Shown in pieces: positions 4,171-11,144 of a stretch of DNA of 24,011 bases. Source of the stretch: a virus; the UHGV virus genome UHGV-0298230. The stretch is one strand, 5' to 3'. Position numbers and translations under genes: made by a program. The notes beneath the pieces were generated by a model. It saw nothing but the letters and a program-made list of their open reading frames with translations. It ran no database searches and was not told the DNA's origin. The stretch's first letter is position 1, and each line of letters opens with the position of its first letter.

Positions 4171-6060
4171 TCTAACTCTTGTTATCATAAAGTCAAAATC
4201 TGCATCAGCCAAGTTGCCAGAGTTATCAGTGGTCACGATCCTGATGGCTGTTGTGCTTGGCTTGCCTGCATATAGCACCTTAAACCCGTTAGTTTTAGTA
4301 CTTGCTACTACCTGAAAGTCATTTACTGTTGGTCCATATAAGAAAGCGCTATCAATTGAATATACCCCTGTGGATTGTTTTGCTATTGTTAAATAAGATG
4401 GTGCATACGCAACACCTGCCGACGTTACACTTCCAGAAATCACCGATGAAGTGCTTACCGTAGATATAGACTTGCTTATGTCCTCACTAAAATGACAGGT
4501 ATCCATTCCATTTAAAGTCATATAAGCACCTCCTGAGATAAATGGTCTCGAAGCGCTAGGTATGTATCCAAAAGCTGTTTGAGTAAAAAAATGACACCCA
4601 TTAAGGTTAACAATGACACGCCCACCACCAGTGCTTAACGCTCTAATCACATATGTACAATAACCGCCTGATGAATTCCCCCTTATAAATGTGCATGAAT
4701 TGATATTTACAATAAGAGGTGAAGATGTCATGTTATTAACCTGAATGTCTGATATTCCTTGATTTGCTTCAAAATAGCAATCAGATATATTTATCACAGA
4801 CATTGGTTCTTTAGCTCTTAGGTAAACACCTCCTGTACCAGTATCTCCCTGAGTTCCATTACCCTCAAAATTGCAGTTGTTTAGATTTATCCTTGTGCCT
4901 ATCTCTCCTTCAATTCCAAATTTTGAGTTACCACTAAAAACACCATTTATTTTTAGTGCGTTAACTGTGCTGTTTGTTCCTCCGTTGATGTACATACCGT
5001 AGTTATTATATTGAGAGTTAATTCTGTTAAATTCACTGGTAAGAACTCCTGTTATTACCAAGCCTGAATTATTTCTTACGAGATACACATCCTCAACTTT
5101 TAGGTATGCAGCATTGCTTAACCTTAATCCAACTCCAGAGTTACCAGTACCATAAACAGTGAAATTAGATAACTTCATACCGCTATGCACACCCTGCCCG
5201 CCCCCTTCTGAATTACCTATATACTCAAGGAAATCATTGCCATTGGTGTTAAATGCAGTATTCGCCATTGACTCGCCAGTAAAGTCAAACCTCTTACTTT
5301 TTCTTCCCATTACAGGAAAATTTGATCCAGAGTGGTTTACTGTAACTTTTGTGGTAGAATTGTATTGCCCATCCTTAATTTCTATACCTCCAGTACCAGT
5401 ATTAAGCATATTTTGAATAGCAGGTGAAACCTCTGTTCCAGATTTCACGCCAAACCATGAAGCCATTTTTGCGCCATTATATGAACGCTTCCAGCGACGG
5501 CCTACTGCATCAATTAATACTGTTCCATCATCATCTTCTGTCGTTGTATCATCTGAATCAAGGAAGAACCATCCTTCTCCTCCATCCTGATTATGTTCTC
5601 TTCCTACGCATTTTATTTGCGTTCCAGAAACGTTAGATGTCCTTATTTGTTCATAAGTCGCCCCAACAATATAAGATTCACCATCAACTGCTGCTAATTT
5701 GTTTATGAAAGCTGGCAATGCCTGATCGGGGTCATACTTCAGCACATTAGGAAAATAGAACTGCTGCGTACCATACGCATCATAAACAGCCATAGAATGG
5801 CCTTGCACGGTAACGAATTTGGCAATCTGTCCGTTATATACAGGGTAACCAGCCGCATTAATGATGATTGGTTGCGAAACAGGAACGTGAGAACCATCTT
5901 CGTTCTCTACATAAACCTGAATCTGGTTTTCAGGATTTACCGGGTCAGTGTCAATTTTACCGATATAAATTTTGCCATTGGCAACCGCTTTAAAAGAACG
6001 CGCCATAGTGAAGAGTTGCGAAGGCATACTCACTACAACATTGGCTGTAATGTCTGTCAT
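4168..6060 (-). CDS. Tailspike protein (630 aa): conserved P22-type N-terminal head-binding domain plus parallel beta-helix receptor-binding/O-antigen-cleaving domain
   Basis: N-terminal ~113 aa ([43 protein letters not shown]...KYDPDQ) closely resembles P22 gp9 head-binding domain; remainder has beta-helix-like repeats ([33 protein letters not shown]). Confidence 0.9.
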
Positions 6061-6135
6061 TTAATTTGCTCCAGATACAAGGAATCGCCGCAGCGTGGCT
6101 ACGGTTGGTATTTGTTGCATACCGAAACGGTACGA

Positions 6136-6164
6136 TTGTTGATTTGTACAGTAGGTTTTACGAT
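6136..6164 (+). promoter_or_regulatory. Candidate sigma70 promoter for the second mnt-like gene (-35 TTGTTG 6136-6141, 17-bp spacer, -10 TACGAT 6159-6164), adjacent to palindrome TACCGaaaCGGTA (6120-6132)
   Basis: Hexamer match and spacing only; weak. Confidence 0.3.
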
Positions 6165-6192
6165 GCCATTCCACCCATTTGGTGAGGCATTG

Positions 6193-6450
6193 ATGATGTA
6201 CAGCAAATACGATGAGGCGCAGTTCCACTTGAGGCTTACGCACGAGTTGCACGCCAAGATTAAGCAACGTGCAAAAATGAATAACAGGTCTATCAATTCC
6301 GAAATTGTGGCTACGATGGAAGAATCGCTCTCCAAACCATCACCTGTAAGCGGGTATCGTGATGAAGAAGAGAGGCTTGCCTCATTAATCTCGGAACGAG
6401 TAAAAGAAGTTGCGGCTGATATTCTTAGAAAAGAAAAAACCCGCGATTAA
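6193..6450 (+). CDS. mnt: Mnt-like ribbon-helix-helix repressor (Arc/Mnt family), 85 aa
   Basis: Sequence MMYSKYDEAQFHLRLTHELHAKIKQRAKMNNRSINSEIVATMEESLSKPSPVSGYRDEEERLA... closely parallels P22 Mnt as I recall it (…NGRSMNSE…SKPSPVTGYRNDAERLA…); SD GGTGAGG 6 nt upstream of the ATG at 6193. The long ORF 5797..6450 in the track is an artefactual N-terminal extension antisense to the tailspike. Confidence 0.8.
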   Translation: MMYSKYDEAQFHLRLTHELHAKIKQRAKMNNRSINSEIVATMEESLSKPSPVSGYRDEEERLASLISERVKEVAADILRKEKTRD

Positions 6451-6458
6451 GCGGGTTT
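6437..6458. terminator. Hairpin terminator AAACCCGC-gattaa-GCGGGTTT between the convergent mnt-like gene and the ant operon
   Basis: 8-bp GC-rich stem; on the minus strand it is followed by a T-run (TTTTTCTTTTC); the loop contains the mnt stop codon. Confidence 0.6.
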
Positions 6459-6464
6459 AATTGG

Positions 6465-6686
6465 TTAGTTATCAAAAAGTCCGTAAGTTTCTTCTTCTTC
6501 AGGTGTAAGGGGAAGAATCTCTACTCTATCTATAGATACCTTTTCAATGTACCCATGAGGTCTACTTAAAATTAAAGCTCTCTCATGCCACAGAACTCCA
6601 AGAATGTGATACCTTCCAGCATCTCCTTTTACCCTGGCTCTTCCTTTGATTCTTGGCGGCATAATGCCATATCTTTTCTTTGCCAT
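6465..6686 (-). CDS. Hypothetical small protein (73 aa), basic N-terminus and acidic C-terminus
   Basis: Start ATG overlaps the stop of the upstream gene (TAATG), indicating translational coupling; MAKKRYGIMPPRIKGRARVKGD...LTPEEEETYGLFDN; no family recognised. Confidence 0.55.
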   Translation of the reverse strand: MAKKRYGIMPPRIKGRARVKGDAGRYHILGVLWHERALILSRPHGYIEKVSIDRVEILPLTPEEEETYGLFDN

Positions 6687-7414
6687 TATGCAACATTGCT
6701 CCCATGAATCAGGTGTTGTAGTGCTTTAACACCCTCCGCATTGTAGCGGAATGCTTCCACCTGTTTGCTTGAATGCGCAGATTTATCCAAGAAGAACTTC
6801 CCGTACTGCTCAGTTTTGAGGTTGTTTGCGTTAGCAATGCGACCAATCTTGTTGGCCGTTACTCCAAGCTGCTCTGCAACCTCCCCTGCTGAGTAGTAAT
6901 GCTCTTCTATTGCCGGAAGAGGTATTGCATTAAAACCAACGAGCGGGTTGATTATACTTGCTGCCGCTGTCTGCTTTGCCTCCGGCGCAAGATTTGGCAT
7001 CAGATCGAACAGATTGGTAACAGCTTCAACCGTCATTTTCAATGTTCGCGCTTGACGATACTCAACAAGTCCACTCGCTGATTTACCGCTTTTAATGTGC
7101 GCTTCTTGCATACTTTCAAGTTGGTCTACCAGTGAGCGGCGAACGGCTTTTGACTCGCGAGCGGCAACTCGCAATGCTTGCTTGATTGACATCTCAATGA
7201 TAACCATCGAAGTTTTGTTCGCTTTTTGCACTACACTTTTTGTGTAGTGCTCTCCATCCAATTCATCTTCAATTTTCTCGATGAATTTGTTATTACGAAC
7301 CTCCGGCTCACCGCACTGTCTACGAGCCTGATTTACCATCTCAAGCAGGCGCTGGCTGTCAATGGTTTTATCCGTGACAACGGATCCGATGTTTGCTACA
7401 TTCTTAAAAGTCAT
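6686..7414 (-). CDS. Antirepressor-type regulatory protein, possibly Rha/ORF6N-like N-terminal region and KilA-C/ANT-like C-terminal region (243 aa from ATG at 7414)
   Basis: AAGGAA 6 nt upstream of the ATG at 7414; C-terminal ...YYSAGEVAEQLGVTANKIGRIANANNLKTEQYGKF resembles antirepressor KilA-C-type motifs; the ORF track start at 7501 is a TTG directly after the upstream stop. Confidence 0.65.
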   Translation of the reverse strand: MTFKNVANIGSVVTDKTIDSQRLLEMVNQARRQCGEPEVRNNKFIEKIEDELDGEHYTKSVVQKANKTSMVIIEMSIKQALRVAARESKAVRRSLVDQLESMQEAHIKSGKSASGLVEYRQARTLKMTVEAVTNLFDLMPNLAPEAKQTAAASIINPLVGFNAIPLPAIEEHYYSAGEVAEQLGVTANKIGRIANANNLKTEQYGKFFLDKSAHSSKQVEAFRYNAEGVKALQHLIHGSNVA

Positions 7415-7482
7415 TAGGCATTCCTTATGTGGTAGTAAGGGTGTGACATAGGCCGCCAGCAGCACACTGGCGGTTTTCTTTT
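7409..7482 (+). ncRNA. Candidate sar-like antisense RNA complementary to the start codon and SD of the 6686..7414 gene
   Basis: Plus-strand terminator CCGCCAG-cagcaca-CTGGCGG followed by TTTTCTTTT (7453-7482) lies in the intergenic gap of a minus-strand operon; candidate promoter -35 GTGACA (7374-7379), -10 TACATT (7397-7402); the transcript would contain UUCCUU, anti-SD to AAGGAA. Confidence 0.4.
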
Positions 7483-7501
7483 GCGCCGTCCTGTGCACCA
7501 A

Positions 7502-8140
7502 TCAATGAATCCATTCCTCGCCGCGAAGTTTTGCCAGCATTGGCTGAGCGTTCTTTACGACAAAATTGTTGGTATCAAGATTCTTCATTTCACGAAGAAG
7601 CGATTTCTTGGTTTCTTCTGACATGTAGCGAGTCTCATATGCAATATCGTAAATCCTTCCAGAAAGCTCAGAACCAATTTGCTTCATTCCTGGGTAGATG
7701 TGTTTGCACATTTGTTGACTCTTCTCCATCCACAATTGTAAGTAGCAGAGATTAACCAGCTCTTCGTCAGTAAACTGTTTTGCAATCGGTGAGCATTCTG
7801 CCTGCCGATCCAAAATATCCAGCACCCAGCGGCGGAACTCTTTGGCCTTGGGCGTAGAAGCAAACATCGCCACCAAGTGAGCGCCTCGGAGCGAGTAAAC
7901 TCTGACCGATTTGTTACGTAAGCTATTGTTTATCCCGTTGACCTTCATATTGAGGGTCAATGACATTGAGTCGGAAAATTCGTCAGCATTACGGGCATAA
8001 ATTTGGCTGATGGCATCAGTTTTTTTATAGCCGAGAGCCTTAGCTAGTTCGGCGGAGGTGAACCAGATAGACCCGCCCTCTGTTACAGGGTTAAAAGTGA
8101 ATCCTTGGAAGTTATAATCTGATTTTGCTACAATATTCAT
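7502..8140 (-). CDS. Antirepressor-type protein with Bro-N/AntA-like N-terminal domain (212 aa from ATG at 8140)
   Basis: AAGGAA 6 nt upstream of the ATG at 8140; N-terminal region (FNPVTEGGSIWFTSAELAKALGYKK...VRVYSLRGAHLVAMFASTPKAKEFRRWVLDIL) matches the Bro-N/AntA pattern; the track's longer ORF start at 8224 overlaps the arc-like gene and lacks an SD. Confidence 0.7.
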   Translation of the reverse strand: MNIVAKSDYNFQGFTFNPVTEGGSIWFTSAELAKALGYKKTDAISQIYARNADEFSDSMSLTLNMKVNGINNSLRNKSVRVYSLRGAHLVAMFASTPKAKEFRRWVLDILDRQAECSPIAKQFTDEELVNLCYLQLWMEKSQQMCKHIYPGMKQIGSELSGRIYDIAYETRYMSEETKKSLLREMKNLDTNNFVVKNAQPMLAKLRGEEWIH

Positions 8141-8215
8141 GTTAGTTTCCTTGGGTACGGTTACTGACATAGAGGCCCGGTTTGTGTTCGCGCACTTCCG
8201 GGCTTCACTATTTTT
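8141..8215 (+). ncRNA. Candidate sar-like antisense RNA covering the SD and start of the Bro-N antirepressor gene
   Basis: Plus-strand candidate promoters (-35 TTGGAA 8105-8110 / -10 TACAAT 8129-8134, or -10 TATAAT 8113-8118) inside the 5' end of the minus-strand gene; imperfect stem-loop 8173-8205 followed by TATTTTT (8209-8215) in the arc-ant gap; arrangement matches P22 sar RNA. Confidence 0.4.
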
Positions 8216-8390
8216 ACTGGGCATTAGCTCTTTCCTCTCTCAGGCTTTTAGCCAGTCGCTGCACAATCGCAGAGTTGATAGAAATTCCATCCATTTCAGC
8301 TACGCGTCTGATCTCCTCCTTCATTCGCGCTGGCAAACGAAGCTGGAAACTCTGACTTTTACGACCACTGTAAAGAACATCGCTCATCAT
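8214..8390 (-). CDS. arc: Arc-like ribbon-helix-helix repressor (58 aa from ATG at 8390; track ORF extends to 8405)
   Basis: ...SQSFQLRLPARMKEEIRRVAEMDGISINSAIVQRLAKSL... has the Arc/Mnt RHH signature; GGAG 6 nt upstream of the ATG at 8390; divergent from the mnt-like gene across an operator-rich region, as in P22 immI. Confidence 0.75.
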   Translation of the reverse strand: MMSDVLYSGRKSQSFQLRLPARMKEEIRRVAEMDGISINSAIVQRLAKSLREERANAQ

Positions 8391-8401
8391 CAATATCTCC
8401 G

Positions 8402-8475
8402 TCATAATGACATCACCGTGATGTCATGACACCATTATGATGCCATTGCTCATAATGTCAATATGATGCTACTGT
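8402..8475. promoter_or_regulatory. Divergent promoter/operator region: 21-bp perfect palindrome ATGACATCA-ccg-TGATGTCAT (8407-8427), repeated TCATAAT/ATTATGA half-sites, and a strong minus-strand promoter (-35 TTGACA at 8461..8456, 16-bp spacer, -10 CATAAT at 8439..8434)
   Basis: Direct reading; the palindrome lies at about +1 of the minus-strand promoter, consistent with an operator for an RHH repressor. Confidence 0.55.
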
Positions 8476-8510
8476 GTTTTTTATTGCTCATATGCCTTGC
8501 GAATAAGAAA

Positions 8511-8762
8511 ATGTCAGAAAAAGACGAATCAAATTTCATAGAAAGATTTACGGTTAGAATGCCTGAAGGCATGCGTAGTGCTATTGCGGAAAGGGCTAAA
8601 CGAAACGGTCGATCTATGAACTCAGAGATAGTTCAAATTCTTGAGGATGCGTTATCATCTGACGTCTCATCAGTAGACAAATCATTAGATCTTAAACAAA
8701 TAAAATCTTTACTTGATAAAATTTCCAACGAGTTACTGGATAGAATCCCAAAAGACACATAA
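8511..8762 (+). CDS. mnt: Mnt-like ribbon-helix-helix repressor (83 aa from ATG at 8511)
   Basis: MSEKDESNFIERFTVRMPEGMRSAIAERAKRNGRSMNSEIVQILEDAL... has the Arc/Mnt signature (NGRSMNSE); same length as P22 Mnt; the track start at 8463 lies inside the operator region. Confidence 0.75.
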   Translation: MSEKDESNFIERFTVRMPEGMRSAIAERAKRNGRSMNSEIVQILEDALSSDVSSVDKSLDLKQIKSLLDKISNELLDRIPKDT

Positions 8763-8808
8763 CAAAACATTATCATCCGGTGTTCTGCTCAAAACTAAGG
8801 AGGTTGGT

Positions 8809-9129
8809 GTGTATATATCGCTATCTACCATTTTTTTCATCTGCTTAGCTATTTGGCTTTTAAGAATATGGCAGGATTGCTCTGTCAGCCATGCTGCTGC
8901 GGTGAGAAATAAAAACGCCCTCATAAAAGAAGCTGAAAACGTTGTCTTATCAATGGATCACCTTTCATGGACCGAGATGACTACAGGGCAACAAGAGGTT
9001 TATGAGTGTGCGATTGAGCGGTTAAGGCTGCTTAAATCGTACAAAAAGAACCACGCACCCGACTCATTCCCATTCCTGAAAGAATGGCCGAGATGGTATG
9101 ACCCGAAAAAAGCAACCATCAACCGCTAA
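8809..9129 (+). CDS. Hypothetical small membrane-anchored or secreted protein (~106 aa) at the position occupied by sieA in P22
   Basis: Strong SD AGGAGG (8798-8803) 5 nt upstream of in-frame GTG at 8809; N-terminal hydrophobic segment (YISLSTIFFICLAIWLLRIW) then a soluble domain; no family recognised. Confidence 0.55.
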   Translation: MYISLSTIFFICLAIWLLRIWQDCSVSHAAAVRNKNALIKEAENVVLSMDHLSWTEMTTGQQEVYECAIERLRLLKSYKKNHAPDSFPFLKEWPRWYDPKKATINR

Positions 9130-9137
9130 CCAACTTT

Positions 9138-11144
9138 TTACTGCTGGGCTTTCTCACTTGAAGCCTGAATTAGAGGTGTAAGAGTTTCAGATACCCGTCT
9201 GATCGCTCTATCATAAGCAGTACTTCCTTTTGGTGTGTTTGCTAACTTTAGTAATGCGTTCCTCATCGCGCGTGACTCATAGCCCCTGCCAGCCATACCG
9301 ATACCAGCTCCAACTGCCGCAACTTTTGCAAACATTGGATTTGTAACAGATGCAAGAGCTGTTATCAGCGCTGCTGGACCAGCTACCATTTGCCCTGTTA
9401 GTGGGCTTGCGGCAGCAGTAGCTGCCTGTCTAGTGGAATCAAGATATTTCATTATCCCATCAAGCTGTTTCCCATGCTCTCCTCTGAAGAACGTCTCAGC
9501 CTGCTTCCGATTCCTTTTCATTTCATTAATAAACTTCTCAACGCTAAGCTTTCCTGAATCGCTTGTCGCCTTATCCATTGCACGCTGAACAAGTGCTGCT
9601 CTAGCATTTTGACGCCCACTATCATCAAGCAATCGATAAAGTTGCGCCCTTTCCGCTGGGCTTTGGCTGAATACTAGTTTAGTGACATCTTCTGGCGTTG
9701 TTTTACCACTCTGAATAGCTTTTTGGACACGTGTATTGCTCATCATGTCGTTGAACTTTGCCCAAGAACGATCAATACGCGACATGTTTTGCGCTTCCTT
9801 CGCACCTAGTTTTGCGCCAACCGCTTTTTTCATGTCTGTTGTGTATGCGTTATAAACAGACTGCGCAGCTTTCTCCAGCGTATCTCTATCGACCTCGTCA
9901 GGTGCTGCCATAAAGCGCTTACGTAAGTTTGTACGGTTTTCTCTAGCTAATTGCAGGTTATTTGGACCGCTGGTGATGTCATTTCTAAACTGTTGAAGGA
10001 CAGAAACAGCTGAGCGGTCTTGCGATACTCCTGGGCGAGTTAACTTGGAAATCTGCTCATCAATTGCTTTCACTGTTCCAGTGATGTCAACAGGAGTATC
10101 CCCCATCAAACTGATGATCCTGTCGTACCGCTTGCCAGCAGCCTGAATAAATTGCTGCTGACCACGAGTAGCTGATTGGTAAAGTTGTGCGTCAGATATT
10201 CCACCAACATTATCGCTAAATGTTCTAACTAAATCTTCCCTGGCCTTTTGCTGTGCATTTCTTATCCCACCTGTTCCGGCTATTGGGATTCGCTCAGCCA
10301 TAGCTCGTGCTTGCTTACCAATATTTGTTCCCGGTTCCACAAGATCTGTTGTCATCAGTGGCAAGTTGTTCTGCTTGGCAAAGTCAATCTGAGCTTGTTT
10401 TTCAGGAGCAATCTTACCCATAGCAGAACGAGACACTGCGCTTGCGGTGTTTTCTACACCCTTCAGTACCCCACCAAGACCAGCAGAAATTGCAGTTTGA
10501 ACTGGATTAACATTCTCACCGCCAGCGATCTTTGTGGCACCCTGTAAAGCTAAATCAGTAGCGCCTGATTTTAGTGTTGCACCTACAACAGACGCAGCTC
10601 TACCTGCTGGAGTGAATGCAAGAGCATTTGCCAAGAATGACGTTATATCCTGCGGTGACAAACCAGGCTTGTTAAGTGCATATTCCCCTGAAGGAAGGGT
10701 GACTATGGAATTTCCCTTCTCATCCTTCCGGATTTTCCCGCCAATACTTTGCAGTATTTTCTCCTGTGAAGCGTCGGAACCAAATAGCTGCCCCAATCCA
10801 GCACGCAGCGCATCAGTGCTTAAGCTATTAAGCTCTGGAGCAGACCCAACATTTTGCAGTCTCTCCATTTCTGGTGTCATTCGGCTTTCACCGGTAACGG
10901 CATCGCGCATTGCAGCACCTAAAACAGCCCCTTGCTCAGCAGATCGATCTAGTCCTTCCTTCTGCTGAGTGGCAAGCTGTGCATATCCTGATGCAAGTGA
11001 GTTGTCTGCTGGCGATTGCTGAACACCTTGTTGTGTTGGTGCTGACTGACCAGCAAAATACTCATCAATGGCGGTGCCAATATCTTCGGTGCTCGTACCA
11101 TCAGGAAAGGTAAATGTCTTACCGTTTGCAGTTACTTTCATCAT
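9138..11144 (-). CDS. Ejection (internal virion) protein, P22 gp16-like (668 aa)
   Basis: Position and order after gp7/gp20 homologues; N-terminus [30 protein letters not shown]; start overlaps the upstream stop (ATGA). Confidence 0.85.

What the first reader, a model, noticed from the sequence alone, without database searches (positions are those of the whole stretch)
8402..8475. Operator-dense divergent control region with a 21-bp perfect palindrome
ATGACATCA-ccg-TGATGTCAT (8407-8427) is a perfect inverted repeat, nested inside a larger TCATAAT...ATTATGA inverted repeat, with a further CATAATG copy at 8451-8457. A strong minus-strand promoter (TTGACA-16-CATAAT) would start transcription at the palindrome edge. 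This is the expected layout for mutual control by the arc-like and mnt-like repressors.
Basis: seen in the sequence. Interest (0 to 1): 0.5.

Follow-up and report, generated by a model that had tools for sequence, protein, structure and literature searches.

The report
Mnt-type operator in phage antirepressor switch
This is the on/off control region for the antirepressor gene of a P22-like E. coli prophage. The palindrome is most likely the binding site of the neighbouring Mnt-like repressor, making this an ordinary but uncharacterised version of the classic phage P22 immI switch.

Summary
ATGACATCA-ccg-TGATGTCAT (8407-8427) is a perfect palindrome. It starts 6 nt after the -10 of a near-consensus minus-strand promoter (TTGACA-16-CATAAT) and ends 16 nt before the arc-like ATG. 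That is the same geometry as Omnt at Pant in phage P22.

The window is a P22-like prophage "ant moron": mnt-like (+) | control region | arc-like, ant (-), plus a sar-like antisense RNA.

Comparison of about 180 related loci shows that the palindrome follows the Mnt-like protein's N-terminal reading head (..IERFTVRMP), not the Arc-like protein. The same Arc-like protein (SFQLRLP) occurs with at least five different Mnt heads, each with its own palindrome. The exchanged block (~8380-8550) is exactly the operators plus the first ~17 mnt codons.

The conserved core is CAYCA-N3-TGATG. It recurs at O2 (8430-8442, over the -10) and in weaker form at O3 (8456-8468, over the -35). The central bases are free to vary.

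The second, P22-type mnt (6196-6450) has a different head and its own palindrome elsewhere.

The Arc-like operator is unresolved; there is only a weak candidate at 8443-8458.

Verdict: a new specificity member of a known system, of low to moderate interest.

The parts
8407..8427 (.). O1: primary operator palindrome ATGACATCA-ccg-TGATGTCAT (core CATCA-N3-TGATG, 8411-8423). It lies at about +1 to +21 of the Pant-like promoter.
   Evidence: establish the sequence. Its geometry equals P22 Omnt. The core is present in all loci with the ERFT[VI]RMP Mnt head and in none of about 75 loci of other classes. The central bases 8417/8418 are the only variable positions among E. coli copies.
8426..8446 (.). 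O2: imperfect copy ATGACACCAT-T-ATGATGCCAT (core CACCA-TTA-TGATG, 8430-8442). It overlaps the Pant -10 and the candidate Pmnt -35. Inferred to be a secondary Mnt-like site.
   Evidence: (D1, I1). It is invariant or nearly so across Yersinia, Klebsiella, Lonsdalea and Hafnia loci found through the protein. Other Mnt classes carry class-specific secondary sites at the same place.
8452..8472 (.). O3: weaker copy (core TGTCA-ATA-TGATG, 8456-8468). It overlaps the Pant -35 and the candidate Pmnt -10. Possibly a third Mnt-like site, or merely the two promoter hexamers.
   Evidence: D1 third copy, 72%. It is conserved in all W-type loci. The resemblance may be partly forced by the -35 and -10 hexamers; this caveat is inference.
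8434..8461 (-). Pant-like promoter TTGACA-16-CATAAT, driving arc-like, ant and two downstream ORFs.
   Evidence: 11/12 match. TTGACAT is the only block shared by all related control regions.
8440..8467 (+). Candidate Pmnt-like promoter ATGCCA-16-TATGAT. It overlaps Pant back-to-back.
   Evidence: 9/12. Both hexamers are conserved in W-type loci of other genera (ATGTCA-16-TATGAT). Its function has not been tested.
8443..8458 (.). Weak candidate Arc-like operator: ACATT-N6-AATGG on the Pant strand, at the same place as Oarc in P22.
   Evidence: (C/x)CATT lies exactly 8 nt before TGTCAA in 44 of 51 distinct control regions paired with Arc SFQLRLP, against 4 of about 22 with other Arc classes. The comparison is confounded by common descent.
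8511..8762 (+). mnt1: Mnt-like ribbon-helix-helix repressor, 83 aa, with reading head MSEKDESNFIERFTVRMP.
   Evidence: Pfam Arc 4.7e-18. PDB AmrZ 2.9e-8 and Mnt 1.9e-7. The model shows helices 21-32, 36-50 and 61-78, and the fold matches AmrZ/Arc.
8214..8390 (-). Arc-like gene, the first gene of the ant operon. The likely start is the ATG at 8390 or 8387, after GGAG at 8400-8397.
   Evidence: Pfam Arc 8.7e-12. PDB Arc 1.7e-5. PGAP start in relatives.
7502..8140 (-). Antirepressor (Bro-N + P22_AR_C).
   Evidence: for the domains; for the PGAP-equivalent start.
8105..8216 (+). sar-like antisense unit. Promoter TTGGAA-18-TACAAT (8105-8134); the RNA runs from about 8141 to 8216, complementary to the ant start and RBS; hairpin 8172-8180/8198-8206; T-run 8211-8215.
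   Evidence: The consensus fold with P22 sar has 9 pairs, 4 with compensatory changes and none broken. There is no Rfam match.

Best explanation
The 21-bp palindrome is the primary operator of the adjacent Mnt-like ribbon-helix-helix repressor (mnt1, 8511-8762). It is the functional counterpart of Omnt in the phage P22 immI region. It covers the start site and first ~20 transcribed bases of a near-consensus promoter that drives the arc-like gene and the antirepressor gene. In a lysogen, Mnt-like protein, probably as a dimer of dimers reading CAYCA and TGATG through its N-terminal arm and beta-strand, would sit on O1 and keep antirepressor off. Because the divergent mnt promoter overlaps Pant, clearing RNA polymerase from Pant should favour mnt transcription, as it does in P22. 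The weaker copies O2 (over the Pant -10 and Pmnt -35) and O3 (over the Pant -35 and Pmnt -10) would fill at higher repressor levels, tightening Pant repression and limiting mnt expression. Arc-like protein, made from Pant itself, and the sar-like antisense RNA add the P22-type negative feedback on ant. What is shown: the sequence features, their conservation, the P22-identical geometry, and the covariation of operator with the Mnt head. What is inferred: binding, stoichiometry, promoter activity, the start site, and the roles of O2 and O3.
For: Gene order and families match P22 immI. The geometry matches the annotated P22 region: a 6-nt gap after the -10, a symmetric operator, then 16 nt to the arc ATG. 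Window and E. coli 55989-type prophages have the same Arc-like protein from residue 9 onward, but different palindromes and different Mnt heads. The identity profile is 87-100% over 8140-8365, about 50% over 8380-8545, and 70-87% over 8560-8635, so the exchanged block is the operators plus the first ~17 mnt codons. Five loci found through the protein alone, from Yersinia, Klebsiella, Lonsdalea, Hafnia and Morganella and sharing the ERFTVRMP head, all carry CAYCA-N3-TGATG sites at the same positions. About 75 loci of more than 30 other head classes carry none, and many have their own class-specific palindromes at the same place. The Yersinia control region is 83-90% identical to the window over 8419-8464, although the flanking genes are more diverged. 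The central bases vary freely while the arms are fixed. In P22, N-terminal residues set Arc/Mnt specificity (Knight and Sauer 1989, cited in PMC3325190), and Pant and Pmnt are divergent, overlapping promoters (PMC2724298).
Against: There are no binding or expression data for this protein or site. Twenty-one of the 28 positive loci were retrieved with a DNA pattern that contains the O2 core, so only about 7 are independent. The operator and the Mnt head are physically adjacent, so co-inheritance would produce some covariation even without function. The palindrome alone is not statistically rare. O1-O2 spacing is 19 bp in E. coli but 18 bp in other genera, which argues against rigid cooperative binding between them. 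O3's resemblance may be a by-product of promoter hexamers. The mnt1 C-terminal tail has no detectable similarity to the P22 Mnt tetramerisation domain, and mnt1 lacks a good Shine-Dalgarno sequence.
Confidence: 0.8

Rival explanations
1. The palindrome is the operator of the Arc-like protein, giving autoregulation of the arc-ant operon at its own +1.
For: Arc-family proteins bind partly symmetric 21-bp operators, and the site lies immediately upstream of the arc-like gene.
Against: Arc-like proteins with the same reading strand (SFQLRLP), and in E. coli identical from residue 9 onward, are paired with at least five unrelated palindrome families. The only words of 5 nt or more shared by all these control regions are those of the -35 block. 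In P22, Oarc lies in the promoter spacer, not at +1.
Confidence: 0.04
2. The second, P22-type Mnt (mnt2, 6196-6450) also binds this region, so two Mnt proteins share it.
For: Both are Arc-family proteins in one ant moron. Natural chimeras of the mnt2 head with the mnt1 tail exist (P0015).
Against: The mnt2 head is AQFHLRLT, different at every specificity position. It has its own conserved palindrome, TACCGAAACGGTA, at 6120-6132 just upstream of its gene, and that palindrome occurs nowhere else in the window. No FHLRL[TP] locus carries the CAYCA-N3-TGATG core upstream.
Confidence: 0.03
3. The palindrome acts mainly as RNA: a 5'-terminal hairpin on the arc-ant mRNA that stabilises it or hinders translation.
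For: If transcription starts near 8427, the transcript begins with a 9-bp stem and 3-nt loop of -9.7 kcal/mol.
Against: The energy is no better than shuffles (z = -0.11). In other genera the stem shrinks to 5-6 bp while the CATCA/TGATG words are kept. The same words recur upstream of the start site at O2 and O3, where no RNA would exist. The sequence tracks a DNA-binding protein's reading head.
Confidence: 0.05
4. It is a chance palindrome in an AT-rich intergenic region, with no specific function.
For: 12% of shuffled windows contain a palindrome at least as long.
Against: Its position is identical to P22 Omnt. Its arms are conserved across genera with a free centre. The association with protein class holds.
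Confidence: 0.03

Closest known systems
Phage P22 immI control region (Pant/Pmnt, Omnt, Oarc, sar)
   Same: The gene order is the same: mnt | arc-ant. There is a strong Pant with TTGACA. A symmetric operator starts 6 nt after the -10 and ends 16 nt before the arc ATG. The divergent promoters overlap. An antisense RNA sits at the arc-ant junction, with a hairpin that aligns with sar.
   Different: The operator sequence differs and is longer (21 vs 17 bp). The Mnt head differs (RFTVRMP vs HFNFRMP), as does the C-terminal tail. There are two further operator-like copies over the promoter hexamers, whereas P22 is annotated with a single Omnt. No Oarc-like sequence is recognisable. A second, P22-type mnt lies at the tailspike side. 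The shared centre CACGGTG is not conserved among relatives, so it is coincidence.
'Ant moron' of P22-like phages (Villafane et al. 2008, PMC2629481)
   Same: It sits between the gene-16 and tailspike homologues. It is highly mosaic and contains mnt, arc and ant homologues.
   Different: This particular type, with two mnt genes and this operator, is not among the annotated phage records searched. It was found in 24 of 5426 complete E. coli genomes, plus IMG/VR contigs.
E. coli 55989 / Salmonella phage Oslo / Klebsiella KP12-type arc-mnt modules
   Same: They have the same Arc-like protein and antirepressor, the same architecture, and TTGACA at the same place.
   Different: The Mnt head is MDRFN[IV]RLP and the operator is TTGGTTCTAGAACCAA. 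The tails are longer.
AmrZ of Pseudomonas aeruginosa (PDB 3qoq)
   Same: It is the closest solved structure to mnt1: an RHH with an extended N-terminus, 52-56% identity over the RHH, rmsd about 1 A. It binds two sites on its own promoter (PMC3325190).
   Different: It is a chromosomal global regulator, not a phage immunity repressor, and it recognises a different DNA sequence.

Membership tests
P22 immI-type antirepressor control region | A divergent mnt-type RHH gene faces an arc-ant operon inside the late-operon 'ant moron'. | tested here: met
   ORFs and Pfam; flanked by gp16-like and tailspike genes.
P22 immI-type antirepressor control region | A symmetric Mnt operator overlaps the Pant start site. 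| tested here: met
   The 6-nt gap after the -10 and the 16 nt to the arc ATG are identical to annotated P22.
P22 immI-type antirepressor control region | Operator specificity is set by the N-terminal arm and beta-strand of Mnt. | tested here: met
   Covariation across about 180 loci and the cassette boundaries. This is correlative, not biochemical.
P22 immI-type antirepressor control region | Overlapping divergent promoters Pant and Pmnt. | tested here: inconclusive
   Pant is 11/12 and the Pmnt candidate 9/12, and they overlap. The hexamers are conserved. There are no transcript data.
P22 immI-type antirepressor control region | An Arc operator in the Pant spacer. | tested here: inconclusive
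   No shared word beyond the -35 block. The weak candidate is ACATT-N6-AATGG.
P22 immI-type antirepressor control region | A sar antisense RNA across the ant ribosome-binding site. | tested here: met
   Promoter, complementarity and terminator hairpin with compensatory changes, alignable with P22 sar. No Rfam family matched.
P22 immI-type antirepressor control region | Repressor binding and repression of ant in the lysogen. | not testable with these tools
   Needs EMSA or footprinting, reporters and 5' end mapping.
Mnt repressor (P22 Mnt family) | An N-terminal ribbon-helix-helix domain. | tested here: met
   Pfam PF03869 4.7e-18; 1mnt 1.9e-7; fold matches to AmrZ/Arc at about 1 A.
Mnt repressor (P22 Mnt family) | A C-terminal tetramerisation domain homologous to that of P22 Mnt. 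| tested here: not met
   The alignment with 1mnt stops at residue 52, and the tail is unrelated in sequence. A single predicted helix at 61-78 could serve the same role, but that is inference. mnt1 is therefore filed as 'Mnt-like in role', not as a P22 Mnt orthologue. mnt2 (6196-6450) does carry the P22-type tail (read by eye).
Arc repressor family | A small RHH protein encoded as the first gene of the ant operon. | tested here: met
   Pfam Arc 8.7e-12; 1arq 1.7e-5; position.

The most novel reading that the evidence does not exclude
Immunity specificity in these ant morons may be carried by a portable cassette made of the operators plus only the first ~17 codons of mnt. This cassette swaps between phages while a near-universal Arc-like protein stays constant and reads a cassette-independent site next to the -35 (ACATT-N6-AATGG). 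The three graded Mnt sites would then form a concentration-dependent switch that first favours and then limits mnt transcription, which P22 itself is not known to have.
Probability: 0.25. Interest if true: 0.45.

Novelty: new member of a known kind. Interest (0 to 1): 0.3.

Why it matters
It gives a concrete, testable operator/reading-head pair (CAYCA-N3-TGATG with ..ERFTVRMP), along with a panel of natural alternative pairs. That panel is useful for understanding how ribbon-helix-helix proteins encode DNA specificity and how prophage antirepressor immunity types diversify by cassette exchange. It does not change the known picture of how immI works.

Tried and rejected
1. An exact search for the palindrome in viral contigs found nothing, because relatives differ at the centre. 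Searching with the O2 sequence worked.

2. The shared centre CACGGTG with P22 Omnt looked like homology. It was rejected because the centre is CCG, CTG, CCA, CTA, TTT, CTT or ACA in relatives.

3. Three candidates for the Arc-like operator were rejected. GCTAYYGT after the -35 failed because G5 is not conserved. ACACCAT failed because it is present with many Arc classes, and L157 has ACATCA with the same Arc. TAGCA-type half-sites failed because they show no dyad.

4. The Rfam scan of 5500-9500 at E<=1 found no hit, including for the sar-like RNA.

5. The RNA hairpin reading was not supported: z = -0.11.

6. One search was a malformed alignment request and carries no information.

7. Berggrun and Sauer 2001 (PMC30133) is not held. 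Statements on Mnt tetramer binding and on Mnt stimulating Pmnt therefore rest on my own knowledge of the P22 literature (Vershon, Youderian, Susskind and Sauer, 1985-87).

8. The 99-aa ORF from the ATG at 8463, called by several databases (P0001), was considered and rejected. Its extra 16 residues (MMLLCFLLLICLANKK) are hydrophobic, are not conserved in other genera, and would precede the DNA-reading arm.

Full report
**What is in the sequence.**
Positions 8407-8427 read ATGACATCAC-C-GTGATGTCAT, a perfect palindrome. On the minus strand, TTGACA (8461-8456), 16 nt, CATAAT (8439-8434) matches the sigma-70 consensus at 11 of 12 positions. Six nucleotides after the -10 the palindrome begins, and sixteen nucleotides after it ends comes the ATG at 8390, preceded by GGAG. 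The flanking TCATAATG/CATTATGA repeat and the third TCATAATG copy exist. However, the outer repeat is off-axis by 4 bp, its right arm is just the -10, and its left arm is not conserved elsewhere.

A palindrome this long occurs somewhere in 12% of shuffled windows, so length alone proves little. Context supplies the evidence.

**Context.**
The window is a P22-like (Lederbergvirus-type) E. coli prophage, closest to phages N7, Sf6 and HK620. Between the gp16-like gene and the tailspike lies an 'ant moron' (term from PMC2629481):
- a small ORF at 8809-9129 (+)
- an Arc-family gene that I call mnt1 at 8511-8762 (+)
- the control region
- an Arc-family arc-like gene at 8214-8390 (-)
- a Bro-N/P22_AR_C antirepressor at 7502-8140 (-)
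- two further ORFs (-)
- a second, P22-type mnt (mnt2, 6196-6450, +) next to the tailspike

The control region is present, with at least one base difference, in 24 of 5426 complete E. coli genomes and in IMG/VR contigs. It is in no annotated phage record searched.

**Comparison with P22.**
The annotated P22 record places Pant and Pmnt almost on top of each other. Oarc lies in the Pant spacer, and Omnt lies right after the -10. Reading the P22 sequence gives TTGACA-17-TATATT, 6 nt, AGGTCCAC-G-GTGGACCT, then 16 nt to the arc ATG. The window has the same two spacings.

A sar-like antisense unit is also present. A TG-extended promoter sits inside ant (8105-8134). The RNA is complementary to the ant start and RBS. 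A hairpin (8172-8180/8198-8206) with a T-run aligns with P22 sar and shows 4 of 9 pairs with compensatory changes and none broken. Rfam has no match.

**Which protein reads the palindrome.**
Four lines of evidence point to mnt1.

1. *Same Arc, different palindrome.* E. coli 55989-type prophages encode an Arc-like protein identical to the window's from residue 9 onward. Their control region nevertheless carries TTGGTTCTAGAACCAA, and their Mnt-like head is MSKFPSHEMDRFNIRLP rather than MSEKDESNFIERFTVRMP.
2. *Cassette boundaries.* The identity profile puts the exchanged block at about 8380-8550, which is the operators plus the first ~17 mnt codons. Both flanks are 70-100% identical.
3. *Independent loci.* A scan of one genome per species with an alignment of Mnt-like proteins returned loci from many genera. 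Each head class has its own palindrome at the same position: ATGTCAC-C-GTGACAT for DKFMLRFP, CACGGTGAAATGATTTCACCGTG for APFGLRMP, CCCCAC-C-GTGGGG for PVFNLRMP, and the P22 sequence for HFNFRMP. The five loci with the window's head (Yersinia, Klebsiella, Lonsdalea, Hafnia, Morganella) all carry CAYCA-N3-TGATG sites.
4. *Counts.* Overall the core is upstream of 28 of 28 FT[VI]RMP genes and of none of about 75 genes in other classes. Twenty-one of the 28 were found with a DNA pattern that includes the core, so about 7 are independent.

Conversely, the Arc-like class SFQLRLP is found with at least five Mnt classes and operator families. The palindrome therefore follows mnt1, not Arc. mnt2 has a different head and its own conserved palindrome at 6120-6132, found nowhere else in the window.

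**Anatomy of the operator set.**
The conserved unit is CAYCA-N3-TGATG.
- O1 (core 8411-8423) is perfect.
- O2 (core 8430-8442, CACCA-TTA-TGATG) lies over the Pant -10 and is nearly invariant across genera.
- O3 (core 8456-8468, TGTCA-ATA-TGATG) lies over the Pant -35 and is weaker. It may partly reflect promoter hexamers.

Other head classes also carry class-specific secondary sites at these places. This supports O2, and less strongly O3, as real sites. O1-O2 spacing is 19 bp in E. coli and 18 bp elsewhere. Among E. coli copies the only variable positions in 90 bp are 8417 (C/T) and 8418 (G/A), and all four combinations occur. The window's 10-1-10 form is thus one allele of a 9-3-9 operator, and the centre match to P22 Omnt is coincidental.

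**Proteins.**
mnt1 and the arc-like protein both hit Pfam Arc. mnt1 is closest to AmrZ and Mnt among solved structures, and the arc-like protein is closest to Arc. The mnt1 model (pLDDT 72) shows the two RHH helices and a C-terminal helix at 61-78, and it superposes on AmrZ/Arc at about 1 A. The tail is not similar to the P22 Mnt tetramerisation domain, so tetramer formation is inferred, not shown.

**Arc-like operator.**
This remains unresolved. The only words of 5 nt or more shared by all control regions paired with SFQLRLP are those of the -35 block. A weak candidate is ACATT-N6-AATGG on the Pant strand (+ strand 8443-8458), at the place Oarc occupies in P22. (C/x)CATT sits exactly 8 nt before TGTCAA in 44 of 51 such regions, against 4 of about 22 with other Arc classes. 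Common descent could explain this.

**Mechanism proposed.**
mnt1 protein on O1 blocks Pant and so keeps Arc-like protein and antirepressor off in the lysogen. Relief of promoter competition favours the overlapping mnt promoter, and O2/O3 add autoregulation at higher levels. Arc-like protein and the sar-like RNA damp ant after a burst. Published P22 work states that Arc represses the divergent, overlapping Pant and Pmnt (PMC2724298) and that N-terminal residues set Arc/Mnt specificity (cited in PMC3325190). That Mnt stimulates Pmnt in P22 is from my own knowledge.

**Rivals.**
An Arc operator, mnt2 binding, an RNA hairpin (z = -0.11) and chance are each disfavoured, as detailed in the rival entries.

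**Verdict.**
This is a new specificity member of the P22 immI family with some variant features: three related sites, two mnt genes, and cassette exchange. Interest is low to moderate.

Noticed in passing
window 8105-8216 (+): A sar-like antisense RNA unit at the arc-ant junction. It has a promoter inside ant, complementarity to the ant start and RBS, and a terminator hairpin with compensatory changes that aligns with P22 sar. No Rfam family matched.
   Followed up: yes
window 8417-8418: Among E. coli copies of the 90-bp control region, the only polymorphic positions are the two central bases of the palindrome, and all four combinations occur (CG, TG, CA, TA). CG>TG and CG>CA are the pattern expected from cytosine deamination on either strand in the loop of an extruded hairpin, so the window's CG form may be ancestral. 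Alternatively the centre is simply unconstrained.
   Followed up: partly
window 6061-6450: A second, P22-type mnt (mnt2, head AQFHLRLT, P22-like C-terminal tail) is divergent from the tailspike gene. Its own palindrome, TACCGAAACGGTA, lies at 6120-6132 just upstream of a weak promoter-like site, and is conserved as TACC-N5-GGTA in phages JEP4 and VSe13. In this lineage the conserved Pro after the beta-strand is Thr. What mnt2 controls is unknown.
   Followed up: partly
L100 2501-2746 (protein P0015): A natural chimera has the mnt2 head fused to the mnt1 tail. It sits between tailspike and gp16 with arc and ant missing. It looks like a deletion of the whole arc-ant block by recombination between the two mnt paralogues at the conserved NSEIV stretch.
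   Followed up: partly
window 8511-8663; L001, L183-L186: NCBI's pipeline marks mnt1 as a pseudogene ('missing C-terminus') in all five E. coli genomes inspected. But 81-84-aa relatives with the same short tail exist in Salmonella, Citrobacter and Hafnia, so the gene is probably intact.
   Followed up: partly
window 10104-10116: A third exact match to the operator core (CATCAAACTGATG) lies inside the gp16-like gene. Its chance expectation in the window is about 0.05. It is also present in two close relatives. Its significance is unknown.
   Followed up: partly
L181 3651-4565 (phage JEP4): JEP4 shares mnt2 through ant with the window (95.5%). Upstream of ant, however, it has an unrelated 57-aa small protein and a divergent C2-like helix-turn-helix repressor in place of arc-like/mnt1. 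The control module has been replaced wholesale.
   Followed up: no
window 8809-9129 (+): A small ORF with a hydrophobic N-terminus, good SD and GTG start lies downstream of mnt1. It occupies the position that sieA and orf59a occupy in P22. It has no family match.
   Followed up: no
L185 (NZ_CP146561.1, 39.9 kb circular 'plasmid'): Two E. coli wastewater isolates carry the same control region on a 39.9-kb circular record annotated as a plasmid. This is probably the circular phage genome.
   Followed up: no
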